From Octopus vulgaris (taxonomy: Eukaryota): a stretch of 64,000 nucleotides of DNA. Numbering within the stretch: position 1 is the stretch's first letter; each line of letters begins with the position of its first letter. Shown here in pieces: positions 1,217 through 59,459 of this stretch. The translations under genes and the position numbers were made by a program. Under the pieces are notes generated by a model. That model saw nothing but the letters and a program-made list of their open reading frames with translations. It ran no database searches and was not told the origin of the DNA. Location of the stretch: NCBI GenBank assembly GCA_951406725.2, contig OX597831.1, forward strand, positions 68,386,001 through 68,450,000, read 5' to 3'.

Positions 1217-1452
1217 TTAAAGGCGGGGAGCTGGCAGAATCGATAGCACGCCGGGCGAAATGCGTAGCCGTATTTTGTCTGCTGTTACGTTCTGAGTTCA
1301 AATTCCGCTGAGGTCGACTTTGCCTTTCATCCTTTCGGGGTCGATAAATTAAGTACCAGTTACGCACTGGGGTCGATGTAATCGACTTAATCCGTTTGTC
1401 TGTCCTTGTTTGTCCCCTCTGTATTTAGCCCCTTGTGGGTAGTAAAGAAATA
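1217..1452 (+). mobile_element. tRNA-derived SINE, family A (full-length, young)
   Basis: Head GGCGGGGAGCTGGCAGAATCG (A-box-like) and GAGTTCAAATTCC (B-box); 17-bp target-site duplication TATATATTTTATTATAT at 1200-1216 and 1453-1469; near-identical copies elsewhere in the window. Confidence 0.9.
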
Positions 1453-5808: not shown

Positions 5809-8800
5809 CATCATCATCATTTAGCGTCCGCTTTCCATGCTAGCATGGGTTGGACGGTTCAATTGGGGTCTGTGAAGCCGGAAGGCCGCATCAGGCCCAG
5901 TCTGATCTGGCAGTGTTTCTATGGCTGGATGCCCTTCCTAACGCCAAGGTTAGTGGGTGCTTTTTACGTGCCACCCGCACAGGTGCCAGATGGAGCTGGC
6001 AAACGGCCACGAACGGATGGTGCTTTTACGTGCCACCGGCACGGGGGCCAGGCGAGGCTGGCAACGGACACGAACGGATGGTGCTTTTACATGCCACCGG
6101 CACGGAGGCCAGACAGGGCGGCGCCAGCAACGGCCACGATCGGATGGTTCGCTTAACCAGAGCTGCAATTTCCACTGATGTTGATCGACCTCAATTTTGG
6201 TTCTGCTTTCTGATATCTGATTTGATTTGGTTTGATTTTGATTTTGACTGTTCTCACTGGTCTTGCCGGGTCTTCTCACGCACAGCATACTTCCATAGGT
6301 CTCGGTCTCTCGTCATTTCCTTGGTGAGACCTAAAGTTCGAAGGTTGTGCCTCACCACCTCGTCCCAGGTTTTCCTGGGTCTACCTCTTACACAGGTTCA
6401 CTCAACTGCCAGGGTGTGGCACTTTCGCACACAACTATCTTCAGCCATTCTCGTCACATGACCATACCAGCACAAACGTCTCTCTTGCACACAACAACTG
6501 ATGCTTCTTAGGTCCAACTTTTCTCTCAAGGTACTTACACTCTGTCGATTCTGAACACTGACATTACACATCCATTGGAGCATACTAGCTTCATTTCTTG
6601 CGAGCTTACGCAAATCCTCAGCAGTCACAGCCCAGGTTTCACTACCATGTAGCATGGCTGTACGTTCTCATGCATCATACAGTCTGCCTTTTACTTTGAG
6701 CGAGAGGCCTTTTGTCACCAGCAGGGGTAAGAGCTCTCTAAACTTTGCCCAGGCTATTCTTACTCTAGCAGTTACACTTTCAGCACACCCGCCCCTGCTA
6801 CTGACTTGGTCACCAAGGTAGCGGAAGCTATCGACTACTTCTAGTTTTTCTCCCTTGAACGTGGTAGAAGTTGGTCTCTGCAAATTTTCAGAGTTTATTG
6901 CTCCTGAGCATCTGCCACAGATAAAAACTATTTTCCTAGTTAGTTTTCCTTTGACATTACTACATCTTTTATGTGTCCATAGCTTACATTTGGTGCATCT
7001 TATAGAGTTTCTACCTACGCCTTTTTTACAGATTGAGCAGGGCCATCTACCTGAAGGCGTTTGTGATTGGTCTACCTTTCTACTTATTAGGACTTTGGTT
7101 TTGGATAGGTTGATTCTAAGGCCCTTCGATTCTAAACCTTGCTTCCACACCTGAAACTTCTCCAGTTCTGATAGAGACTCAGCAATTAGAGCAAGGTCAT
7201 CAGCATAGAGGAGCTCCCAGGAGCATCCTGTCTTGAATTCCTCCGTTATTGCCTGGAGGACTATGATAAATAGGAGGGGACTCAGGACTGAACCTTGGTG
7301 GACTCCAACCCCTACCCGGAATTCTTCACTGTACTCGATGCCAACCTTCACCTTACTAGCAGCGTCTCTGTACATAGCTCGTACAGCTCTCACTAACCAT
7401 TCATCTATCCCTAGTTTCCTCATTGACCACCAGATAAGGGATCGAGGGACCCTGTCGAAGGCTTTCTCCATATCAACAAAAGCCAGGTATAGGGGCTTGC
7501 CTTTGGCTAGGTATTTCTCCTGCAGCTGTCTTACCAGGAATATAGCATCAGTAGTACTTTTTCCTGGCACGAACCCAAACTGCATCTCATCTAAGCTAAC
7601 TCTCTCTCTAATTAGTTGGGCTATAACCCTCTCCGTGACCTTCATTACCTGATCCAGCAGCTTGATACCCCTGTAGTTATTTGTATCTAGAGCGTCACCT
7701 TTACCTTTGTAGCAGTTAAATATTATGCTGCTACACCAGTCATTGGGTATGACTCCTTCGTGTATCACCTGGTTTACTATACGGGTGACTAGGCTATAGC
7801 CAACACTACCAGATATTTTAAGCAACTCTGCAGTAATTCCTGATGGGCCTGGGGCTTTCTCTGTCTTCATGCTTCTAATTGCCTTAACTACCAAGGAACT
7901 GTCAACTCGGATAGCTGGTCCCTCTGTTGGGTCGACATTCGGCAGACTCTCTTCATCCCATTCATTTTCTTTATTCAGCAACCTTTCATAGTGGCATCTC
8001 CAAACCTCTCTCTTTGCATCCTCATTTAGCGCAAGTGAGCCGTCATCCATGCGAACACATTTCTCTCCTACCACGTCACGATTCTCTCTCACACACTGTC
8101 TTGCAATACGAAATACCTCAAGTCTTTCATCCTCATGGCGCAGGACATTGGCAAATTTTTTTTTATCTGCTTCCTCTCTGGCTAAATACACCTGCCTCCT
8201 AGCTTCCCTTCTTGCAGTCTGATACACTTCCCTGCTACCACCGTTCTTCCAGTCCTTCCAAGCCTGTTTCTTTTGTCTAATAGCCCTGTCAACAATATTG
8301 TTCCACCGCCACGTTATTTTGGGTCTTGAGGGGACTTTGCACCAGCCACAGATCTGGTCAGTGGCTTTCAGCAGGCTGTCCCTTAGAAGCGCCCAGTTAT
8401 CTTCTACCCCAGGTGTAGCTATACCCCCTTCTATTTCGTCGAAGGCTTCAAGTAACATGTCTCTAAATCTCTGTCCATTTGCAGGGTCTTTAAGCTTCCA
8501 TACCCTTCTTCTCCATGTTGGTCGTCTTCTAGTCGTCCTCTTAGTCCTGATCCTAAAGTCACTGACTACCAGTCTATGTTGTGGGGTACATTCTTCGCCT
8601 GGAAAGGTTTTGGCATTTATAAGCAGCCATCTTTCCCTTTTTCTGGCAAGGATGTAGTCGATTTGGCTAGTATGCCTGCCCGAACGGTAGGTGACCAAGT
8701 GACTTGTCGGTTTCCTGAAGTTAGTGTTGCAAACCATAAGACTATTTGCATCACAGAACTCCAGCAGCCTGGTTACCTCCTCGTTGCGGGAACCATAACC

Positions 8801-17032: not shown

Positions 17033-17510
17033 ATCATCATCATCATCATCATTCATTTAGCGTCCGTTTTCCATGCTAGCATGGGTTGGACGGTTCAACT
17101 GGTGTCTGGAGAGCCCGAAGGCTGCACCAGGCCAGTCAGATCTGGCAGTGTTTCTACAGCTGGATGCCCTTCCTAACGCCAACCACTCCGAGAGTGTAGT
17201 GGGTGATTTTATGTGCCACCGACACAGGTGCCAGACGAGGCTGGCGAACGGCCACGCTCGAATGGTGTTTTTTATGTGCCACCGACACAGGTGCCAGACG
17301 AGGCTGGCAGACGGCCACGCTCGGATGGTGTTTTTATGTGCCACCGACACAGGTGCCAGATGAGGCTGGCGAACGGCCACGATCGGATGGTGTTTGTTAC
17401 GTGCCCGCAGCACGGAGGCCAGTCGATGCGGTACTGGCTACGGCCACGTTCGGATGGTTTTCTTGCGTGCCACCGGCACTGGTACCTCAAAAATACAAAT
17501 TCCATTGATA
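17033..17510 (-). mobile_element. RTE 3'UTR fragment with ~62-bp tandem repeats
   Basis: (CAT)n-TTTAGCGTCCGTTTTCCATGCTAGCATGGGTTGGACGG matches the LINE 3' end at 5808-5860; repeat units start at ~17211, 17274, 17336, 17399 and 17465. Confidence 0.9.
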
Positions 17511-19913: not shown

Positions 19914-21075
19914 TCATCATCATCATCGTTTAACATCCGTTTTCCATGCTAGCATGGGTTGGATGGTTCAACCGGGGTCTGGGAAGCCAGGAGGCTGCGC
20001 CAGGCTCCAGTCTGATCTGTTTCTACAGCTGGATGCCCTTCTTAACACCAACTACTCCGTGAGTGTAGTGGGTGCTTTTTACGTGCCACCGGCACAGGGG
20101 CCAGAGGAAGCTGGCAAATGGCCACGATCGGTTGGTGCTTTTTACGTGTTACCGACACAGACGCCAGTCAGGCGGTGCTGGCATCAGCCACGTTTGGATG
20201 GTGCTATGCATAATTATATGTATATATACATACACACACACACATATATATACACACACACACACATCATCATCATCATCATCGTTTAGCATCTGCTTTC
20301 CATGCTAGCATAGGTTGGATGGTTTGACTGAGGACTGGCAAACCAGAAGGCTGTACCAGACTCCAATCTGATCTGGCAAAGTTTCTACAGTTGGATGCCC
20401 TTCCTAATGCCAACCACTCCAAGAGTGTAGTGGGTGCTTTTTTCATGTCACCAGCACGAGGGCCAGTCAGGTGATACTGGCATCGACCATGTTGAACTGA
20501 TGCTTTTTACATGCCACCTGCATGGGACCAGTCAGGCACCACTGGCATCAACCATCCTTGAATGGTGCTTTTTATATGTCACTGGCACGGGAGCCACTCA
20601 GGCAGTACTGGCGATGACCATGCTCTAATGGTGCTTTTTACATGCCACCAGCATGGGACCAGTCAGGCAGCACTGACAATGACCATGCTCAAATGGTGCT
20701 TTTATGTGCCACCAGCTTGGGTGCCAGTCAGGCGGTACTGGCATTGGCCATGACTGACTTAAACTGACTCAACAGGTCTTCGCAAGCACAGTTTATTGGC
20801 CAATGATTGAAGGGTACTCTTCAATGGGCCAGTTATGCTGCCCTGGCATAGGCCATGATTATGGTCTCATTTGGCTTGCCAGGTCTTCTCAAGCACAGCA
20901 TATCTCCAAAGGTCTTGGTCACTCATCATCACCTCCTTGAGGCCCAACATTCGATGGTCATCTGGGTCTACCTCTTCCGCAGGTTTCCTCTACTGCTAGG
21001 GTGTGCCACTTTTCCACACAGCTGTCCTCATCCATACACAACACATGACCATACTAGTGCAACCGCCTCTCTCTC
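19914..21075 (-). mobile_element. Two tandem RTE 3' fragments (19914-20205; 20266-21075, the latter with ORF C-terminal remnant)
   Basis: Each starts with (CAT)n..TTCCATGCTAGCAT; the second has about five 60-bp units and sequence matching 6260-6490. Confidence 0.85.
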
Positions 21076-27660: not shown

Positions 27661-27960
27661 TGCTAGGGTTCACTCTTATTTCTAAAAAAACAGGGATCTG
27701 TTTTGTTAAAAATAAAGAGTATTGTGTCATTCTGCCAATTCCCATGCAAAGTAAGGTTTGCATACTTGCAATATATGACAACATGGCAAAGAAGTGTCTC
27801 ATGTATATTTATTCTACTTACACTGGAGTCACGTAAAACTTAGTTTATGTAGAAGCATTGTTGACTTCACTGAACATTTGCTGAAGTATGCAGTCTGCCC
27901 AAATATCACAGAGATGAAGCTTTTTACAATGAAGCAACTTTCTTTCCATGTACCTTACCT

Positions 27961-28372
27961 ACTTCTTTACTACCCACAAGGGGCTAAACGCAGAGAGGAC
28001 AAACAAGGACAGACAAACAGATTAAGTCGATTATATCGAACCCAGTGCGTAACTGGTACTTATTTAATCGACCCCAAAAGGATGAAAGGCAAAGTCGACC
28101 TTGGCGGAATTTGAACTCAGAACGTAGCGGCAGACGAAATACCTATTTCTTTACTACCCACAAGAGGCTAAACACAGAGAGGACAAACAAGGACAGACAA
28201 ACGGATTATGTCGATTATATCGACCCCAGTGCATAACTGGTACTTATTTAATCGACCCCGAAAGGATGAAAGGCAAATTCGACCTCAGCGGAATTTGAAC
28301 TCAGCATGTAGCGGCAGACGAAATACTGCTAAGCATTTCGTCCGGTGTGCTAACGTTTCTACCAGCTCGCCA
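27961..28372 (-). mobile_element. Family A SINE head-to-tail dimer
   Basis: Two units with 184-bp period joined at CAGACGAAATACCTATTTCTTTACT (28131-28155); 12-bp TSD TGTACCTTACCT at 27949-27960 and 28376-28387. Confidence 0.9.
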
Positions 28373-29454
28373 ACTTGTACCTTACCTTCTGTAATACAAA
28401 TACCACTATGTCCTCGTTCAGCATCAATTTCATTTACATCTCTAAGTCTCGATTGCTTACTTTTGCATGTTTGCACTCAAAAGCAAAACAAAGCCTTTTT
28501 CCTGTGCAACTTTACTTTATTTCATGGGCTTTCACCATTCATCATCCATGAAGCCATACATCACTCCATTACTACTACCCACCTCTGCATACCAGCATAA
28601 TCCATTTATATTCAAGAAGCACAACATCTCTATATATTTATGCCAAACTGCCCACATCATTAACCCTGTTTACTCATATCCTTATATATGTAGATATACA
28701 TACAACCCCAAAAGTCTCTTTTTTATTCTGTTGGCCTCAACATTGATATAAACTGATACTAAATATGCTTGCAGAAAACCATAATACTTTTGAGCATGGC
28801 CTTTTCATTGAGGAGGCTAATGTATATGTGTGTTGTTCACAGTTATCAACAGATATTATGGGATGGGTAAGAACTATTAGCCATGAAACTGAGCTACCAA
28901 TATTACTGAATAAGCTATCAAAAGATTGATCAATCTTTCAGCTACCAGTGTAAAGTAAGTTTTTTGCCCAACAACCCAATTTTACTACAAAAATGAACAC
29001 CAAACTGAGGCTGAGTTGCACAAATTTTAGGTCATTTTGGGGGCAATGTTAGGATTTCCTTCTAATCTAAACTTCCATTGTACGTGTTTATGGTGTCAAA
29101 AATTTCAACATTGTTCTTCAGAAATCGATGTGGATGTGTGGTAAGTAGCTTGCTTACCAACCACATGGTTCTGGGTTCAGTCCCACTGCGTGGCACCTTG
29201 GGCAAGGTGAAAAACATGTTTATAAAGAAGAGTTATTTGCTTGATACCTTCTGTGTGCTGATTCTGCCCATAAGAAAGGAATAAACAATACAATGTGGCT
29301 GTAAGTCATAACACCCAGGCAACGCTGGGATGCATTATGAGAAGTATGATAAAACCGTTGACAGATGAGAACGAAGGAGATGATGTGAAGTGTGGGGGAG
29401 AAATAAATACACAGTGATAGAGATGGGAAGTCAGAGGCAGAGGTGGATATAATG

Positions 29455-29686
29455 TATTTCTTTACTACCCACAAGGGGCTAAATACAGAGGGGACAAACA
29501 AGGACAGACAAACGGATTAAGTCGATTACATTGATCCCAGTGCATAACTGGTACTTAATTTATCGGCCTCGAGAGGATGAAAGGCAAAGTCGACCTTGGT
29601 GGAATTTGAACTCGGAACGTAATGACAGACGAAATACAGCTACGCATTTCGCCTGGCGTGCTAACGTTTCTGCCAGCTCGCCACCT
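29455..29686 (-). mobile_element. Family A SINE
   Basis: Reverse complement of the 1217-1452 element over its full length. Confidence 0.9.
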
Positions 29687-35653: not shown

Positions 35654-36235
35654 ATCATCATCATCATCGTCGTCGTTTAATTAACGTCCACTTTCCATGC
35701 TAGCATGGGTTGGACGGTTTGACTGTGGGTTGGCAAACCAGATGGCTGCACCAAGCTCGTCTTGATCTGGCAGAGTTTCTACAGCTGGATGCCCTTCCTA
35801 ACGCCAACTACTTCGAGAGTGTAGTGGGTGCTCTTACGTGCCACCGGCACGGGGGAGTCAGGAGGTACTGGCAACGATCGCGCTCGAATTTTTACACATG
35901 GGCCAGTCAGGCGGTACTGGCAATGACCTCGCACGAATTTTTGGGCCAGGCAGGCAGTACTGGCAACGACCTCACTCGAATCTTTTGCACATACCAACGG
36001 CACAGGTGCCAGTAAGGCGATGCTGGTAATGATCCCGCTCAAATAGTGCCTCCTACATGCTACCAGCACGGAAGCCAGTTAGCTGCTCTGGCAACGATCA
36101 CGCTCAGATGGTGCTCTTAACTCCCTACTAGCACGGGGCACAAGTGCCAGTAAGGTGAGGCTGGCAACAATCACACTCGTATGGAGCTCGTGCCTGTCAT
36201 CGAATTTCACTTTGGTTTTGATTTCCGTTTCGATT
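35654..36235 (-). mobile_element. RTE 3'UTR fragment with tandem repeats
   Basis: (CAT)n..TTCCATGCTAGCATGGGTTGGACGG followed by diverged ~60-bp units. Confidence 0.85.
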
Positions 36236-45436: not shown

Positions 45437-45667
45437 AAGGCGGCGAGCTGGCAGAATCGTTAGCACGCCGGGTGAAATGCTTAGCAGTATTTCGTCTGCC
45501 ACCACGTTCTGAGTTCAAATTCCACCGAGGTCGACTTTGCCTTTCATCCTTTTGGGGTCGATTAAATAAGTACCAGTTATGCACTGGGGTCGATATAATC
45601 GACTTAATCCGTTTATCTGTCCTTGTTTGTCCCCTCTATGTTTAGCCCCTTGTGGGCAGTAAAGAAA
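45437..45667 (+). mobile_element. Family A SINE
   Basis: Full-length match to 1217-1452; imperfect TSD AGAATAGAAA(C/T)TGGT. Confidence 0.9.
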
Positions 45668-47185: not shown

Positions 47186-48087
47186 CATATACATATATAT
47201 ATATACACACACACACGTGTGTGTGTGTGTGTGTGTATATACCTGTATACATATAGAGAGAATTGCAGAAAGATATCTTTTACATACAAATATTATTTAC
47301 ATATTTCACTGTTATTGGACACTTTTATAAAAGGTTTTGTGTAAATGTATAAAGTAATTATGCTATTTTTATAACAAAATATTGGTATAGAGGATTTTAT
47401 TAATTCAACACATAAATATTTATATATCTTAAGCTGCCATAGAAAAACAATACAAACAGGATTCTTTTTTAGTATTATTATTCACATTTATATTTCAAAA
47501 TGTCATTTTTGTCTCTCTTTCACAAAATTTTAGTTTTTACTTTTTCAAATGCTTTATATATTAAACTACCTTGGTGGTTTTTATAGTTTCTTATATATAT
47601 GTATATAAGGAAATGTTGGCATATTTTGCATCTTTATTTGTTTTCATCAAAGTTGAATTTTTATTTAAATTTATTTTCACATAAAAAAATATATAGCATG
47701 GTGTATTCTTTGATTCTTTGTTCAGTATTGAAATTCATTTTCTTTATACTATGGCAATAATAGCAAAATGTCGAGTTATGGTTTAATATATTAAAGAATG
47801 AGTTTTATTCACGTCTCCAATATATTTGGATAGAAATAAATGTTTTTACAAATGGTTTCTTTCTTACAGAATATATAAAGTTACTTTCATCGTACTAATC
47901 CTGAGCTTCAGGATTCTGGCCAGAAGAAAATATTCATAGATCATTCTCTTTACTTATATAGTTGTTTCTTATTAAAAAAATACACCCTCACCAAAAAGAA
48001 AAAAATTCCATGTTGGTGAAGTTGATCTCTAGTTGATGAATTCTTATGATGGTGCTTTATGGTGTGAAGGCAATCCATTGAAGACTG

Positions 48088-48646
48088 CAAGCTGGCAGAA
48101 ACGTTAGCATGCCGGGCGAAATGAGTAGCCGTATTTCGTCTGCCGTTACGTTCTGAGTTCAAATTCCGCTGAGGTCGACTTTGGCTTTCATCGTTTCGGG
48201 GTCGATAAATTAAGTACCAGTTCACTGGGGTCGATGTAATCGACTTAATCCGTTTGTCTGTCCTTGTTTGTCCCCTCTGTGTTCAGCCCCTTGTGGGTAG
48301 TAAAGAAATAGGTATTTCGTCTGTCGTTACGTTCTGAGTTCAAATTCCGCTGAGTTCGACTTTGCTTTTCATCCTTTTGAGGTCGATAAATTAAGTACCA
48401 GTTACGCGCTGGGATCGATGTAATCGACTTAATCCGTTTGTCTGTTCTTGTTTGTCCCCTCTGTGTTTAGCCCCTTGCGGGTAGTAAAGAGATAGGTATT
48501 TTGTCTGCCGTTACGTTCTGAGTTCAAATTCCGCTGAGGTCGACTTTGCCTTTCATCCTTTCGGGGTCGATAAATTAAATACCACTTCACTGGGGGTCCT
48601 TGTTTGTCCCCTCTGTGTTTAGCCCCTTGTGGGTAGTAAAGAAATA
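48088..48646 (+). mobile_element. Family A SINE head-to-tail trimer
   Basis: One head, then units rejoining at GAAATAGGTATTTCGTCTG (48311) and GAGATAGGTATTTTGTCTG (48495). Confidence 0.9.
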
Positions 48647-48667
48647 TATTATCTGTTCAGCAGACAT

Positions 48668-48895
48668 TTAACCTTTTAGCAGTTGGATTATTCTGTCAAA
48701 TTTAATGCTTATTTAGTCAAATTGTCTTATATTAATCATGCATTATCTTGGGGCTTCAAGATTTTGATGAAGTGATTGTTCATTTTTAGAATAACTTTGT
48801 AGTGTAGGTGTGAGGAGATGGATCTGACTGGTTTAAACATTAAACAGGTAGAATATTTTGGCCAGTTCTGGCTGGTTTAAATGCTAAAGTGTTAA
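48668..48895. mobile_element. piggyBac-type MITE
   Basis: TTAA|CCTTTTAGCA ... TGCTAAAGTG|TTAA; same family as 35405-35598 in opposite orientation. Confidence 0.8.
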
Positions 48896-49065
48896 GCAAT
48901 GACCTAATGACATTCCTATTTTTTTTATTGTCCTTAATTTTTAAACAGTCAGGTATAATTTCAAGGAGACTTGGTCACTAATTTTAGAAGGTTCTATGAC
49001 TATGTAGAAACCCATGTATCTTGTTATTTTTAATATTGTCAAATGGAAATTGTAGTTAAGACACC

Positions 49066-51007: not shown

Positions 51008-51615
51008 ATCATCATCATCATCGTTTAGTGTCCGCTTTCCATGCTAGCATGGGTTGGACGGTTCAACTGGGGTCTGGGAAGCCAGAAGGCTGCACCAGGC
51101 CCAGTTTGATCTGGCAAGGCCAGGCAAGGCTGGCAACGGCCACGAACGGATGGTGCTTTTTACATGCCACTGGCACGAGGCCAGTCGGGGCAGCGCTGGC
51201 AACGGCCACGAACGGATGGTGGTGCCAGACGAGTCTGGCAAACGGCCACGAACGGATGGTGCTTTTTACGTGCCACCGGCACGAGGCCAGTCGGGGCGGC
51301 GCTGGCAACGGCCACATTCGGATGGTTCTCTTACATGACACCGGCACTGGTAACTCAGCTGCAATTTCCATTGATCGATTTCGATTCTGATTCTTACTTG
51401 CCTCAACAGGTCTTCACAAGTAGAGTTTTGTGTCCCAAGAAGGGAAGGTATGCATAAGTGGGCTGGCTACATCCCATGTAGAGGGCCACGGGTTATGGTC
51501 TCACTTGTCCTGCTGGGTCTTCTCACACACAGCATACTTCCAGAGGTCTCGGTCTCTAGTCATTTCCTCAGTGAGACCTAAAGTTCGAAGGTCGTGCTTC
51601 ACTACCTTGTCCCAC
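51008..51615 (-). mobile_element. Young RTE 3' fragment including ORF C-terminus
   Basis: WDKVVKHDLRTLGLTEEMTRDRDLWKYAVCEKT matches the C-terminus at 6254-6370; 3'UTR repeats and (GAT)n tail present. Confidence 0.92.
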
Positions 51616-53059: not shown

Positions 53060-53385
53060 TGTGCTGGTGGCGCATAAAAAGCACCATCCGATCGTGGCCA
53101 TTGCCAGCCTCGCCTGGCCTCCGTGCCAGTGGCATTTAAAAAGCACCAGCCGATCATGACCGTTTACCAGTGTCGTCTGGCACCTGTGCCGGTGGCACGT
53201 AAAAAGCGCCCACTACACTCACGGAGTGGTTGGTGTTAGGAAGGGCATCCAGCCGTAGAAACATTGAGAGATCAGACTGGGCCTGGTGCAGTCTTCTGGC
53301 TTCTCAGACCCCAGTTGAACATTCCAGCCCATGCTAGCATGGAAAGCGGACATTAAACGATGATGATGATGATGATGATGATGAT
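53060..53385 (+). mobile_element. RTE 3'UTR fragment
   Basis: Tandem units, AGGAAGGGCATCCAGCCGTAGAAAC, CCCATGCTAGCATGGAAAGCGGAC..(GAT)n. Confidence 0.88.
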
Positions 53386-56311: not shown

Positions 56312-58836
56312 TTGTAGATGACTTTAGTAACAATATCATGTCTCATGAGAAGATGGTACCTAATGGATATTTTTTGGATAGTTGCTGATATGGGATGCAT
56401 CTTCCACTCTGGTACAAGACAAATGATAGTTTCTATTCCAACATGCAGGTTGAAAGGCATTGCTTGTGACTTTTGCTGATCAAGTATTTAGTAAATATTT
56501 CTTGTTTATGGATGACCTTTTTCAAAGTGAGAAGTGATTTATTTATCTCAGCTCCAGCAGATGCTTCTTTCTCTTGTTAACCTTGCTGGCATTCTCTAGC
56601 TTGTATGATGTACTCATGCAGAACTTTCGGCTAGAACTGTTAGTATTTCTCTTTCAAGTCCCTGTTTAAGGAGATCAGTCAAGCTACCTTTGGTTTGCAT
56701 GGAACAGCAGTTCATTCAGATTACTTGTTCAAGAGTTTTCCCCCTAATCTTATGTACTTATTTCTCTCTTTACTGTTCAGGAGTTGTTGTCTGACACTCT
56801 AGAAAAATACCCCAAAAAACTAATAACTTTGTTTTCATCACTTCATTAAATACCAATCCTGTCACTCTCACTGCTGATGTGAAAATTACTAGTCGTTGTA
56901 AGTATCTTTCTAGTTCTGATGTCTGTCTGTAAGTATGCATGTGTGTGTGCATACATATATGCACATGTGCAGCCCTCACAAAGGGGAAGACATACACCAA
57001 TATAGCAGCTAAACTTACACAACACCACACTTGAATGGAGGATGCAGTCAGACAGGAGCCTGTAGAACTGTGACCTCTCCTGCCTACATTATTCCTTGTC
57101 TGTGTCTGCATGAATGAGGATACTATGGAAGTGCCAGTATTTGATTGTTGTAGACATACAAGATGCTCTACTTGCCACATAATATACTTTGAAAAATAGA
57201 TATTGATTAGAATAAGTATGGATTCAATATAAACAACTAAATTTCTGAAGAATAAAATAATAAATGAATATCTTTATGTCTAAAACCATAGGAAGAAAAG
57301 TGTTATCTAACGAGTGTAAATGATTAACTAGTAAGGGTGATAAAAGTGAATAAATTGGAATGTCAGTTCATAGTATGTAAGTTTGAATCTACAGTAGCAA
57401 TTTGTCATGTTTCTTGGGAGTTCTACTTTATTTCATATATGTGTACAGAGAAACATTAAAAGTCTTTTTGAAAGTTACCGGTGACTGACTCGTATACACT
57501 TTCAGAGAATTTTTTTTCTCAGATAAACTTCATAAAAGTTTAACACTGGCTATCTGGATTCATATAATTCCTGAGAGTATTAATTTTAATAAGTACTACT
57601 ACAGAATTATTTGATAAACTGGTTGTTTGATAAGCTAAGAGAGTGTGTGTTGGTCATATTGCTAAATAGATAAGACATCTGTTGTAAGATGATTACAATG
57701 TCACCATTCAGGGAAAATGATGGATAATTCACTACAAATGCCTTCCATGCTCTTTGAAGATATACACTTGGTTCATATTAATTAATTACATTGGGGCCCA
57801 TGTTCAAATTCTACTGATTTTAAACATATTACACTAATGTCAACAAATTGATGTATGTAAAACTTACAAAGCTAGCTGTACTAAAACCTGTAGTCGGATG
57901 TTAATGTTGTAGTCAGCCAATATTAATGATGATAGCATCACTGCCTCATTCTATTATGAAAGATAAATTAATGTTGATTAATGATTATAGCTTTAAAGAT
58001 TCTATACACAACCACAAATGGAGCAAGAATTTGACATCAAAGAATTCAGATAATTTAAATTATATCAAGATATAGCATGTCTTCAAATTGTCTTGGGAGA
58101 TTTCTTCGTATTAGACTGATGTAGTTATAAATACACTGCTCATGTTTACATCTTTAGAAATTAGACAAAACAAATTTTATTTGGTGAATCAAGTTTATGT
58201 AGCTTTAAACCATTGGAATGGAATTCAAAGAACTGTTACTTCTACTAGATAAATAATGTTTTAAAAGAGAACTTTTTTCAGCCTTATCAGCTAATATATT
58301 TCAGCATCTTTGATGCACATGTTTAATGTTTATATCATTTGTAAAAGATGTTGCGTTATTCTTTTCAGAATGCTCTTATGTCAAGATGATGATTGAATTT
58401 GATTTCTTTCTGGTTTCCAACATATTTCCTCTCTGACAATACTGTTAGAAATATGTTAATTAATAATGTTATTGCTTCTACTTTATTACAAATATTTCTT
58501 AGCTGGGTGATACACTCAAAGCATTATCTCAACAATTCTCATAAATCCAATTAATCTTGTCAAAATGTGAAGTTTTTAGTATTTAAACAGATGCTTAGTA
58601 CTGTGCATTTGTGTGTGCATATACCTTATAAATATTTGTATGCCAACTTGCATGTAAATATGTATATGTGTAGGTGAATGTATTTACATAAGCACATGTG
58701 TATACATATGTGAAGATGTTTGATGGTCAAGTTGATAGGGACTGTGTTGTTTCTTCATGATGTGGGAAAAACAACTTTCAGTGGACAAATCCTGAGCCTG
58801 GGTAGTAACTTTGAGGGTATATTATATATAGCTGTT

Positions 58837-59072
58837 TAAAAGGTGGCGAGCTGGCAGAAACGTTAGCACATCGAGCGAAACACTTAGCGGTATTTCGTCT
58901 GCCGTTGCGTTCTGAGTTCAAATCCTGTCAAGGTCGACTTTGCCTTTCATTCTTTTGGGGTCGATAAATTAAGTACCAGTTACGCACTGGGATCGATATA
59001 ATCGACTTAATCCGTTTGTCTGTCCTTGTTTGTCCTCTCTGTGTTTAGCCCCTTGTGGGCAGTAAAGAAATA
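58837..59072 (+). mobile_element. Family A SINE
   Basis: Full-length; 21-bp TSD GGTATATTATATATAGCTGTT at 58816-58836 and 59073-59093. Confidence 0.92.
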
Positions 59073-59459
59073 GGTATATTATATATAGCTGTTAGCAGGA
59101 GCACTGTTAAAGAATAGTCAGTTATTTATTCACTTGTAAGTCTGAGTTCATTTTTTCCCTCTAAGAAATACTACTTTTCTATCCATGAAGGGCTCATGCT
59201 ATGCTATGAAAGTCAGAGTAAAGTCCAGAATTTGAGGAAACACATGAAATCTGTGTCAGTAACAATTAATGTAAAGGAGAGTTTATGGAATGGTGAAAAG
59301 TACAGTTGTCATTACGAGACAGGAGTAATATTTTGGCCTTTCAGGAAAGGGAAGAAAAAAGATGGAGTCTTACACCTGGCTATCAGCAAAGGATGCAGAG
59401 AAAAGATGCCAATTAAGTTTGAAAACTTATGTTGTATAAATGTGTTATACTATTTTTTT

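What the first reader, a model, noticed from the sequence alone, without database searches (positions are those of the whole stretch)
48088..48646. tRNA-SINE concatemers with a fixed ~184-bp re-entry junction: rolling-circle or circular RNA intermediate?
Seen: the SINE 3' end (..AGTAAAGAAATA) is joined to the same internal point (GGTATTTCGTCTG, between the A and B boxes) twice here and once at 28131-28155 (-). The monomer at 58837 has a TSD beginning GGTAT. Inference: the template RNA continues past the apparent 3' end into the internal sequence, so it may be circular or multimeric as in retrozymes, or the RT jumps at a fixed microhomology. A tandem master locus is the simpler alternative.
Basis: partly seen in the sequence, partly recalled or inferred. 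Interest (0 to 1): 0.7.

Follow-up and report, generated by a model that had tools for sequence, protein, structure and literature searches.

The report
SINE inserting into its own body
The head-less repeat units are real and join at the same point tens of thousands of times in this genome, but the joined units are mostly different copies of different age, so they likely come from a short jumping element pasting itself into one fixed spot of resident copies, with later local duplication, and likely not from an RNA circle.

Summary
A circle or a single tandem master is unlikely. Many arrays end in a unit of another SINE family (B); that unit is older than the unit before it (4.99% vs 2.84% non-CpG divergence, 38 dimers, p=3e-6); the two parts show no linkage across 75 pairs; no ribozyme was found. 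The entry point equals the target motif of the tail type: tail A1 enters position 47 and its flank duplications start GGT; tail A2 enters position 14; tail B never entered 47. Two-headed nested insertions with a duplication starting at 47 exist but are about 1% of junctions. Best reading (0.55): A1 inserts at position 46/47 of resident SINEs and its head replaces the host head; arrays of four or more units grow later at DNA level (inner units 2.0% apart, first vs last 10.9%). How the host head is lost and why position 47 is so hot remain open; no partner LINE at this site was found.

The parts
48087..48310 (+). Trimer unit 1: headed SINE A copy (positions 4-230), A1 tail, 42G/47C head variant, 3-nt deletion near position 140
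48093..48105 (+). A-box-like motif of the Pol III promoter
   Evidence: read from the sequence; motif consensus recalled
48113..48142 (+). Head hairpin region (SINE positions 30-59); in the family consensus the 3' arm starts at position 47 (48130 here)
   Evidence: local fold of the family consensus, 13 bp, -16.5 kcal/mol
48155..48167 (+). B-box-like motif
   Evidence: read from the sequence; motif consensus recalled
48311..48494 (+). Trimer unit 2: head-less unit 47-230, 184 nt, lacks the 3-nt deletion of units 1 and 3
48495..48646 (+). Trimer unit 3: head-less unit 47-230, 152 nt, shares the 3-nt deletion with unit 1, has a further 29-nt deletion; no flanking duplication found
27960..28372 (-). 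Dimer: headed unit plus one head-less unit, junction 28144|28143; both units share one subfamily haplotype, 7.4% apart
28376..28386 (-). Upstream copy of the dimer's 11-nt target duplication (downstream copy 27949-27959)
58843..59072 (+). Monomer of SINE A, used as reference for position numbering
58816..58836 (+). Upstream copy of the monomer's 21-nt target duplication starting GGTAT (downstream copy 59073-59093)
1223..1452 (+). Monomer of SINE A with 17/17 duplication starting TATAT
29455..29684 (-). Monomer of SINE A, no duplication found
45440..45667 (+). Monomer of SINE A with 14/15 duplication starting AGAAT

Best explanation
The joined units are mostly different copies of different age, and the SINE with the A1 tail likely inserts, by LINE-type target-primed reverse transcription, at one fixed internal site (position 46/47) of resident SINE copies, its own head likely replacing the host's head, after which the dimers likely lengthen by further insertions and by DNA-level unequal exchange. 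Shown: fixed junction; polarity (A1 upstream; A1, A2, B or C last); the entry site matches the motif at which the same tail type inserts elsewhere; two-headed nested insertions with a duplication starting at 47; last B unit older than the first unit; inner units of long arrays near-identical and mostly chimeric between last and first unit. Inferred: a nick at 46/47 primes copying from the A1 tail; the new cDNA pairs with the near-identical host head, so no second head and no inner duplication remain; the helper is a Tx1/L1-type LINE; read-through RNA (tail plus GGUAU...) helps to choose the site.
For: Junction: 26,015 exact matches, control 0; in fetched loci 246 of 252 A1 re-entries are at 47 (loci chosen around junctions); 69 of the first 100 listed A1 tail ends re-enter at 47 (counted by eye); 48 of 116 off-centre A elements carry such a junction. 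Tail specificity: 0 of 100 listed B ends at 47; A2 ends 15 of 100 at 14 and 7 of 100 at 47; B re-enters at 19 in 5 of 199. Target motif: 32 of 82 A1 flanks start GGT; 11 of 27 upstream duplication copies start GGT against 1.1% background. Direct nested cases: L174 and L123, where the duplication at 47 carries host-private changes; 201 genome matches of site-gap-new head, control 0. Age: B last vs A first 166/3324 vs 94/3315 non-CpG, p=3e-6, 38 dimers. Outer duplication of A..B arrays is as worn as that of solo B and about twice that of A1-ended elements (0.11-0.145 vs 0.085-0.125 vs 0.05-0.07). No linkage between A and B parts in 75 pairs (Mantel rho 0.016, p=0.23). Heads are donor type near the junction (42G in 18 of 55 A..B arrays, 0 of 18 young solo B). 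Long arrays: adjacent inner units 122/6026 vs first-last 255/2330 in 16 arrays. A tail resembles the 3' end of an APE-RT-zfRVT LINE.
Against: Two-headed insertions are rare, 64 per 32,132 head sites and 55 per 42,665 junction sites: no excess where head homology is absent, and by my rough estimate no more than a plain GGTAT preference gives, so the route that made the other ~99% is inferred, not seen. Host sequence is rarely kept in the first unit (62T in 3 of 49 dimers whose host has it); the host-head signal at site 18 is not significant (20 of 53 vs 10 of 48, p=0.08). The duplication-age test compares different target types; rank tests gave p=0.05-0.17 and mismatch did not correlate with either unit's divergence. 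Units of A1-A1 dimers are more alike than chance (38 of 55 sites vs 47%, p=0.01, two sites linked). RNA overwriting of the target is weak (9:1 columns, 5:1 without two low-complexity rows) and absent at 60/62 (10 of 39 vs 7 of 29). Searches for LINE ends at 47 or 14 showed none in the listed rows. The window's own trimer has no duplication, and its units 1 and 3 share a deletion seen in no other A unit of 1.8 Mb, which needs conversion or a more complex history.
Confidence: 0.55

Rival explanations
1. Read-through dimer RNA. Rare two-headed nested loci (and later the dimers themselves) are transcribed from the inner A head through the host body, as neither family consensus has a T4 terminator; the whole dimer is retroposed from the last tail, or a monomer from the A1 tail with the next unit's GGUAU as primer-annealing sequence.
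For: No run of four T in either consensus; L132 and L046 carry 29 and 26 nt of the next unit before their duplication; donor-type heads; outer duplication motif follows the last tail; weak positive age correlation within A-B dimers (rho 0.36, p=0.03); nested sources exist.
Against: No sibling pair by substitutions among 2,775 pairs of A-B units and no linkage, which needs on the order of a thousand equally active sources; outer duplications look host-aged; 0 of 12 multimers truncated inside unit 1 have a duplication, against 7 of 34 truncated monomers (p=0.16) and 56 of 89 full-length multimers.
Confidence: 0.2
2. Reverse-transcriptase jump between RNAs: copying starts on a B, A2 or A1 RNA at the target, reaches position 47 and switches to the 3' end of an A1 RNA whose extension pairs with the new cDNA.
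For: Explains polarity, donor heads, unlinked units and mildly raised haplotype sharing; position 47 is the first base of the 3' arm of a 13-bp hairpin; a 6-nt tail stutter occurs at junctions as at flank ends, so junctions look like priming events.
Against: Last units are older and privately mutated; outer duplications look host-aged; no pile-up of 5' ends at 47 (7 of 270 A first units start at 41-50); the same motif is used on genomic DNA.
Confidence: 0.13
3. Ordinary nested insertion with two heads, followed by later deletion between the two 60-nt head repeats.
For: Two-headed forms exist; a few first units keep host sequence at 47-65 (L080, L282).
Against: About 99% would have to collapse; uniform crossovers would dilute donor 42G, which is undiluted (18 of 55 vs 16 of 51); junction sites, which cannot collapse by head homology, show no excess of two-headed forms.
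Confidence: 0.07
4. A 184-nt circular RNA copied by rolling reverse transcription (retrozyme-like).
For: Fixed junction; ends can pair weakly across the junction (-8.9 kcal/mol); 2 of 10 A1-A1 dimers, one of them in this window, have the same haplotype in both units.
Against: Mixed-family arrays; 211 of 270 A first units are headed; homogeneous arrays have old, different first and last units; no hammerhead core, no HDV-like fold by my own descriptor, circular fold z=+0.8; no Rfam match.
Confidence: 0.03
5. One tandem master locus gave all multimers.
For: Would give a fixed junction.
Against: Last units of at least four types; many first-unit haplotypes among A-B dimers; star-like B units.
Confidence: 0.02

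Closest known systems
SINEU-3 with Tx1-Mar LINEs of crocodilians (Kojima 2015, PMC4494074; passages read)
   Same: SINE with target preference for a fixed place in another mobile element, ascribed to Tx1-clade machinery; sequential insertions give tandem copies.
   Different: There the target is a Mariner element and tandem copies are complete and separated by a duplication; here the target lies inside the SINE and its sister families, and the copies are head-less and seamless.
SINE-derived satellites (sSats) of squamates (Vassetzky et al. 2023, PMC10702118; passages and the whole Discussion read)
   Same: Tandem repeats of a SINE portion with a longer terminal unit; longer arrays more uniform; unequal recombination proposed. 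Matches the second stage here.
   Different: Units there vary between loci and taxa; here one junction seeds tens of thousands of independent loci, equals the insertion motif and joins different families in fixed order.
Head-to-tail SINE multimers of Dip and B2 (PMC8466645; passages read)
   Same: About half of all copies in multimers, up to eight units; insertion versus dimeric template left open.
   Different: Those are full-length units; here every unit after the first lacks the head from a fixed internal base.
R1/R2 site-specific non-LTR elements of Drosophila (Stage and Eickbush 2009, PMC2718515; passages read)
   Same: cDNA annealing to upstream target sequence gives precise 5' junctions and target deletion; tandem arrays by repeated insertion. 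Precedent for the inferred head replacement.
   Different: Autonomous elements, rDNA target, short homology; not a SINE targeting itself.
Animal non-LTR retrozymes (bioRxiv 10.64898/2026.07.22.740005, abstract and outline only; PMC4918200 search listing only)
   Same: Short non-coding units in tandem.
   Different: Defined by hammerhead ribozymes and rolling-circle copying; no ribozyme here, Pol III head present, units unrelated.
Octopus tRNA-derived SINEs OK, OR1, OR2 (Ohshima and Okada 1994; seen only as reference-list entries and one passage in PMC4758252)
   Same: I recall these repeats as octopus SINEs; no call named the organism or the family.
   Different: Identity with any of the three was not tested.

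Membership tests
SINE (tRNA type) | Short, interspersed, at least 100 copies | tested here: met
   230 nt; 77,440 matches of the A1 tail pattern
SINE (tRNA type) | Variable target duplications | tested here: met
   45 of 75 full-length monomers and 56 of 89 full-length multimers
SINE (tRNA type) | Head at least 60% identical to a tRNA | tested here: inconclusive
   A- and B-box-like motifs by eye; ARAGORN 0 genes, Rfam 0 matches at E up to 10; no tRNA library compared
SINE (tRNA type) | 3' tail shared with a LINE | tested here: met
   A positions 187-228 match LINE ends at 81-84%; LINE ORF2 has APE, RT, zf-RVT
Non-LTR retrozyme | Self-cleaving ribozyme in each unit | tested here: not met
   no Rfam match; no hammerhead core pair, no HDV-like descriptor hit on either strand
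Non-LTR retrozyme | Units of one insertion copied from one RNA | tested here: not met
   mixed families and ages; same haplotype in 2 of 10 A1-A1 dimers
Non-LTR retrozyme | Circular RNA in vivo | not testable with these tools
   only contigs of runs guessed to be RNA were available
Tx1-mobilised target-specific SINE (SINEU-3 type) | More than 20% of copies at one target sequence | tested here: met
   69 of 100 listed A1 ends at SINE position 47; 48 of 116 off-centre elements
Tx1-mobilised target-specific SINE (SINEU-3 type) | A Tx1 LINE sharing the same target | tested here: inconclusive
   the LINE I found ends in (TATC)n at all 34 ends seen in 28 of 30 loci; no LINE end at 47 or 14 in the listed rows or in 8 of 8 loci; clade not tested by a tree; earlier notes of this scan report such a LINE
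SINE-derived satellite (sSat) | Tandem SINE portion with longer terminal unit, homogenised inner units | tested here: met
   16 arrays of 4-11 units, inner 2.0% vs first-last 10.9%; not met by most dimers and trimers
Dimeric SINE family (Alu type) | Both monomers amplify as one unit with linked diagnostic changes | tested here: not met
   no linkage in 75 A-B pairs; many active sources could hide it

The most novel reading that the evidence does not exclude
The SINE RNA programs its own landing site: read-through bases behind the tail pair with the nicked target, each tail variant carries the flank of its source (A1: position 47, A2: position 14, B: position 19), and every seamless self-insertion makes a new source with the same guide. 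That would be a heritable, self-reinforcing, RNA-guided homing loop in a SINE that overwrites the promoters of sister families and seeds minisatellites at tens of thousands of loci.
Probability: 0.3. Interest if true: 0.75.

Novelty: new variant of a known kind. Interest (0 to 1): 0.5.

Why it matters
If right, a SINE takes over older SINE copies at a fixed internal base on a very large scale (42,665 exact 17-nt junction matches against 32,132 intact head sites). It gives a natural series for two open questions: how far RNA-target pairing rather than the endonuclease sets target choice in non-LTR retrotransposition (a two-base tail change goes with a different site), and how the 5' end is joined when cDNA and target are homologous. 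It also shows a route from interspersed repeat to minisatellite: insertion makes the first duplicate, DNA exchange makes the array. In practice, copy counts and age curves for these families are distorted by hybrid copies, and junction reads in RNA data would be miscalled as circular RNA. I found no description in nine searches of the paper library; the library lacks most subscription papers, and I could not read the 1994 octopus SINE paper or Repbase entries.

Tried and rejected
Laying public contigs on 47300-49050: hundreds of thousands of SINE contigs piled up, no piece spans the trimer; one contig covers 48625-49050 with one difference. No RNA holder was listed as such; this says nothing on expression. 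Ribozymes: none; monomer fold z=0.52. Host head kept with a hidden duplication as the general rule: rejected; holds in a few cases. Cleavage of the RNA at 46/47 with end-to-end jumps: no pile-up of 5' ends at 47. Overwriting of host positions 60/62 by RNA extension: no signal. Prediction that two-headed insertions are commoner at junction sites: failed. First age test with heavy masking was uninformative; the duplication count with a score cut showed no class difference and was replaced by a mixture fit. L128 and L131 first looked like nested truncated insertions but their 47-70 stretches differ, so I read them as internal deletions. Search for a partner LINE at 47 or 14: nothing. L259 was left out of counts from then on as a paralogue of L258; elements at locus edges and low-complexity flanks were left out of duplication tests. 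The 201 two-headed matches were seen only as short listed matches, except L223. No supplements were read.

Full report
Numbering. Positions refer to the monomer at window 58843-59072 (230 nt, 'family A'). A1 and A2 are two tail variants that differ at positions 218 and 220. Family B shares positions 1-165 and has another tail; C stands for older relatives with further tails. These labels are mine. The window lies at G000:C18:68386001-68450000 in a 2.8-Gb genome; I recall the repeat as an octopus SINE, but no call names the organism.

Observation. The trimer is a headed unit (48087-48310) plus two units that start at position 47 (48311-48494, 48495-48646) with no gap. The second junction has two substitutions and the third unit is shortened to 152 nt. 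The dimer at 27960-28372 (-) and the monomer's 21-nt duplication starting GGTAT are as described. The trimer has no flanking duplication. The exact 25-nt junction occurs 26,015 times in the genome, the reversed control never.

Data. I fetched 200 stretches, 1.8 Mb with the window, nearly all on contig C1 and centred on pattern matches, so class frequencies at locus centres are biased. Among 116 A elements away from the centres, 48 carry at least one junction at 47 (37 one, 10 two, 1 three). Of the first 100 listed A1 tail ends, 69 re-enter at 47 and 31 run into flank, 12 of them starting GGT (by eye; the pattern drops ends with C at one flank position). Arrays reach 11 units.

The junction depends on the tail. 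In the loci, 246 of 252 A1 re-entries are at 47; A2 re-enters at 14 in 9 and at 47 in 4 of 56 ends; B re-enters at 19 in 5 of 199 and never at 47. Genome lists agree: A2 15 of 100 at 14 and 7 of 100 at 47, B 0 of 100 at 47. Each entry site resembles what follows that tail in ordinary flanks: GGT in 32 of 82 A1 flanks, AGA in 10 of 43 A2 flanks, ATT in 70 of 189 B flanks. GGT belongs to the target, as 11 of 27 upstream duplication copies start with it against 1.1% background. So the junction is where this SINE tends to insert.

Insertion into position 47 happens on DNA. L174 and L123 read host head, duplicated stretch from 47, full A copy, host body from 47; the duplicated stretch carries a host-private substitution or deletion on both sides. 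A pattern for this form has 201 matches, control 0. But it is rare: 64 per 32,132 head sites and 55 per 42,665 junction sites, about 1% of junctions, and by rough estimate what a plain GGTAT preference would give. Nearly all multimers have one head only.

The units are not copies of one RNA. Last units are often B, A2 or C while the upstream unit is A1. Over the same positions, B last units are more diverged than first units (4.99% vs 2.84% non-CpG, 13.9% vs 8.3% CpG, 38 dimers, p=3e-6). B parts are star-like and unlinked to A parts in 75 pairs. A1-A1 dimers share a four-site haplotype in 2 of 10 scorable cases (random 9%), A1-A2 pairs in 0 of 16, A1-A1 pairs of longer arrays in 10 of 36. Some excess likeness exists (38 of 55 sites vs 47%; low sharing along the whole unit), as expected from conversion or from a minority of self-duplications. 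No ribozyme was found. This argues against a circle and against one tandem master.

Which route removes the host head? Heads are donor type near the junction: 42G in 18 of 55 A..B arrays, 16 of 51 A1-type monomers, 0 of 18 young solo B; host 62T appears in the first unit in 3 of 49 cases. Site 18 is intermediate and not significant. The outer duplication of A..B arrays is as worn as that of solo B and about twice that of A1-ended elements (mixture fits 0.11-0.145, 0.085-0.125, 0.05-0.07 over four window sizes), as expected if it dates from the host; target types differ, however, and rank tests gave p=0.05-0.17. Multimers cut inside unit 1 had a duplication in 0 of 12 cases, cut monomers in 7 of 34 (p=0.16). 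Together with the lack of sibling dimers this favours insertion on DNA with replacement of the host head by the homologous cDNA, for which R1/R2 give a precedent (PMC2718515, passages). Dimer RNA from very many sources and a jump between RNAs stay possible: neither consensus has a T4 terminator and two insertions carry 26-29 nt of the next unit before their duplication. My prediction that two-headed forms would be commoner at junction sites failed, so the efficient route either needs the head or is not a DNA insertion.

Long arrays are secondary. In 16 arrays of 4-11 units adjacent inner units differ at 122 of 6,026 sites, first and last at 255 of 2,330; in most, the inner units match the last unit at their 5' part and the first unit at their 3' part, cleanly so in L163. 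L163's inner units are 0.2% apart while its duplication has 2 mismatches in 13. This is the mark of unequal exchange within an old dimer, as proposed for squamate sSats (PMC10702118).

This locus. Units 1 and 3 share a 3-nt deletion found in no other A unit of the sample; unit 2 lacks it. A circle would not skip unit 2. A foreign unit placed between two related ones, or conversion between units 1 and 3, fits; I cannot tell which.

Helper. The A tail resembles the end of an abundant LINE with an intact 1,149-aa ORF2 (APE endonuclease, RT, zf-RVT) whose 34 seen ends all lie in (TATC)n. Its domain order suggests the L1/Tx1 group (my knowledge; no tree made). Earlier notes of this scan report a Tx1 LINE that lands in this SINE's head; my pattern searches did not find it, so whether enzyme or RNA sets the site is open.

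Verdict. A real, genome-wide feature; the circular-RNA reading is unlikely. It works like a target-specific, Tx1-mobilised SINE (SINEU-3; PMC4494074, passages) whose target is its own family, followed by sSat-like growth. New variant of a known kind; interest 0.5. Other readers of this scan reached a similar view on other windows, which is not independent support; the age, linkage and tail-specificity tests here are my own.

Noticed in passing
L280 1117-4566 (-); L191-L220: Abundant young LINE with intact 1,149-aa ORF2 (APE, RT, zf-RVT); 150 scored matches at 92% or more; all 34 ends seen in 28 of 30 loci run into (TATC)n, several in tandem.
   Followed up: partly
SINE positions 42 and 47 (window 48125, 48130): T42G and G47C go together in 53 of 246 headed A units and keep the closing pair of the head hairpin; the change also removes the GGTAT site from that head.
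   Followed up: partly
genome-wide, A1 tail: A 6-nt stutter of the tail end before position 47 fills most of the first 100 rows of 2,122 matches and also occurs at flank ends; it looks like slippage at priming.
   Followed up: partly
L277 4734-4779 and 6521-6566 (-): A longer element in tandem whose tail is closer to the A tail than the TATC LINE's; its ends are often followed by one fixed motif, suggesting another site-specific family.
   Followed up: no
L046 4767-5285; L086 1799-2260; L221 773-1474; L225 2442-2911: Pairs of A elements in inverted, tail-to-tail arrangement, some sharing variants; twin priming or insertion on both strands of one site.
   Followed up: no
L052 4600-5545: A four-unit array inserted about 50 nt upstream of an old truncated SINE; the duplication runs into that SINE and the first unit starts with its sequence, a single case of 5' joining by homology to a resident copy.
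   Followed up: partly
L162 3390: Tandem of positions 20-184 with its own junction: locally duplicated SINE portions with other boundaries also occur.
   Followed up: no
L085 6749-6804: A SINE head broken at position 58 by a sequence with a hammerhead-like core motif read by eye.
   Followed up: no
window 5956-6148, 17207-17405, 20433-20752, 35856-35992, 51119-51326, 53060-53207: Short arrays of a related 43-65-nt GC-rich unit (one reported as 106 nt) dispersed through the window.
   Followed up: no
B units entered at position 14: 9 of 10 have A at site 18, against 13 of 26 young solo B: A2 may prefer or overwrite hosts that match its own continuation.
   Followed up: partly
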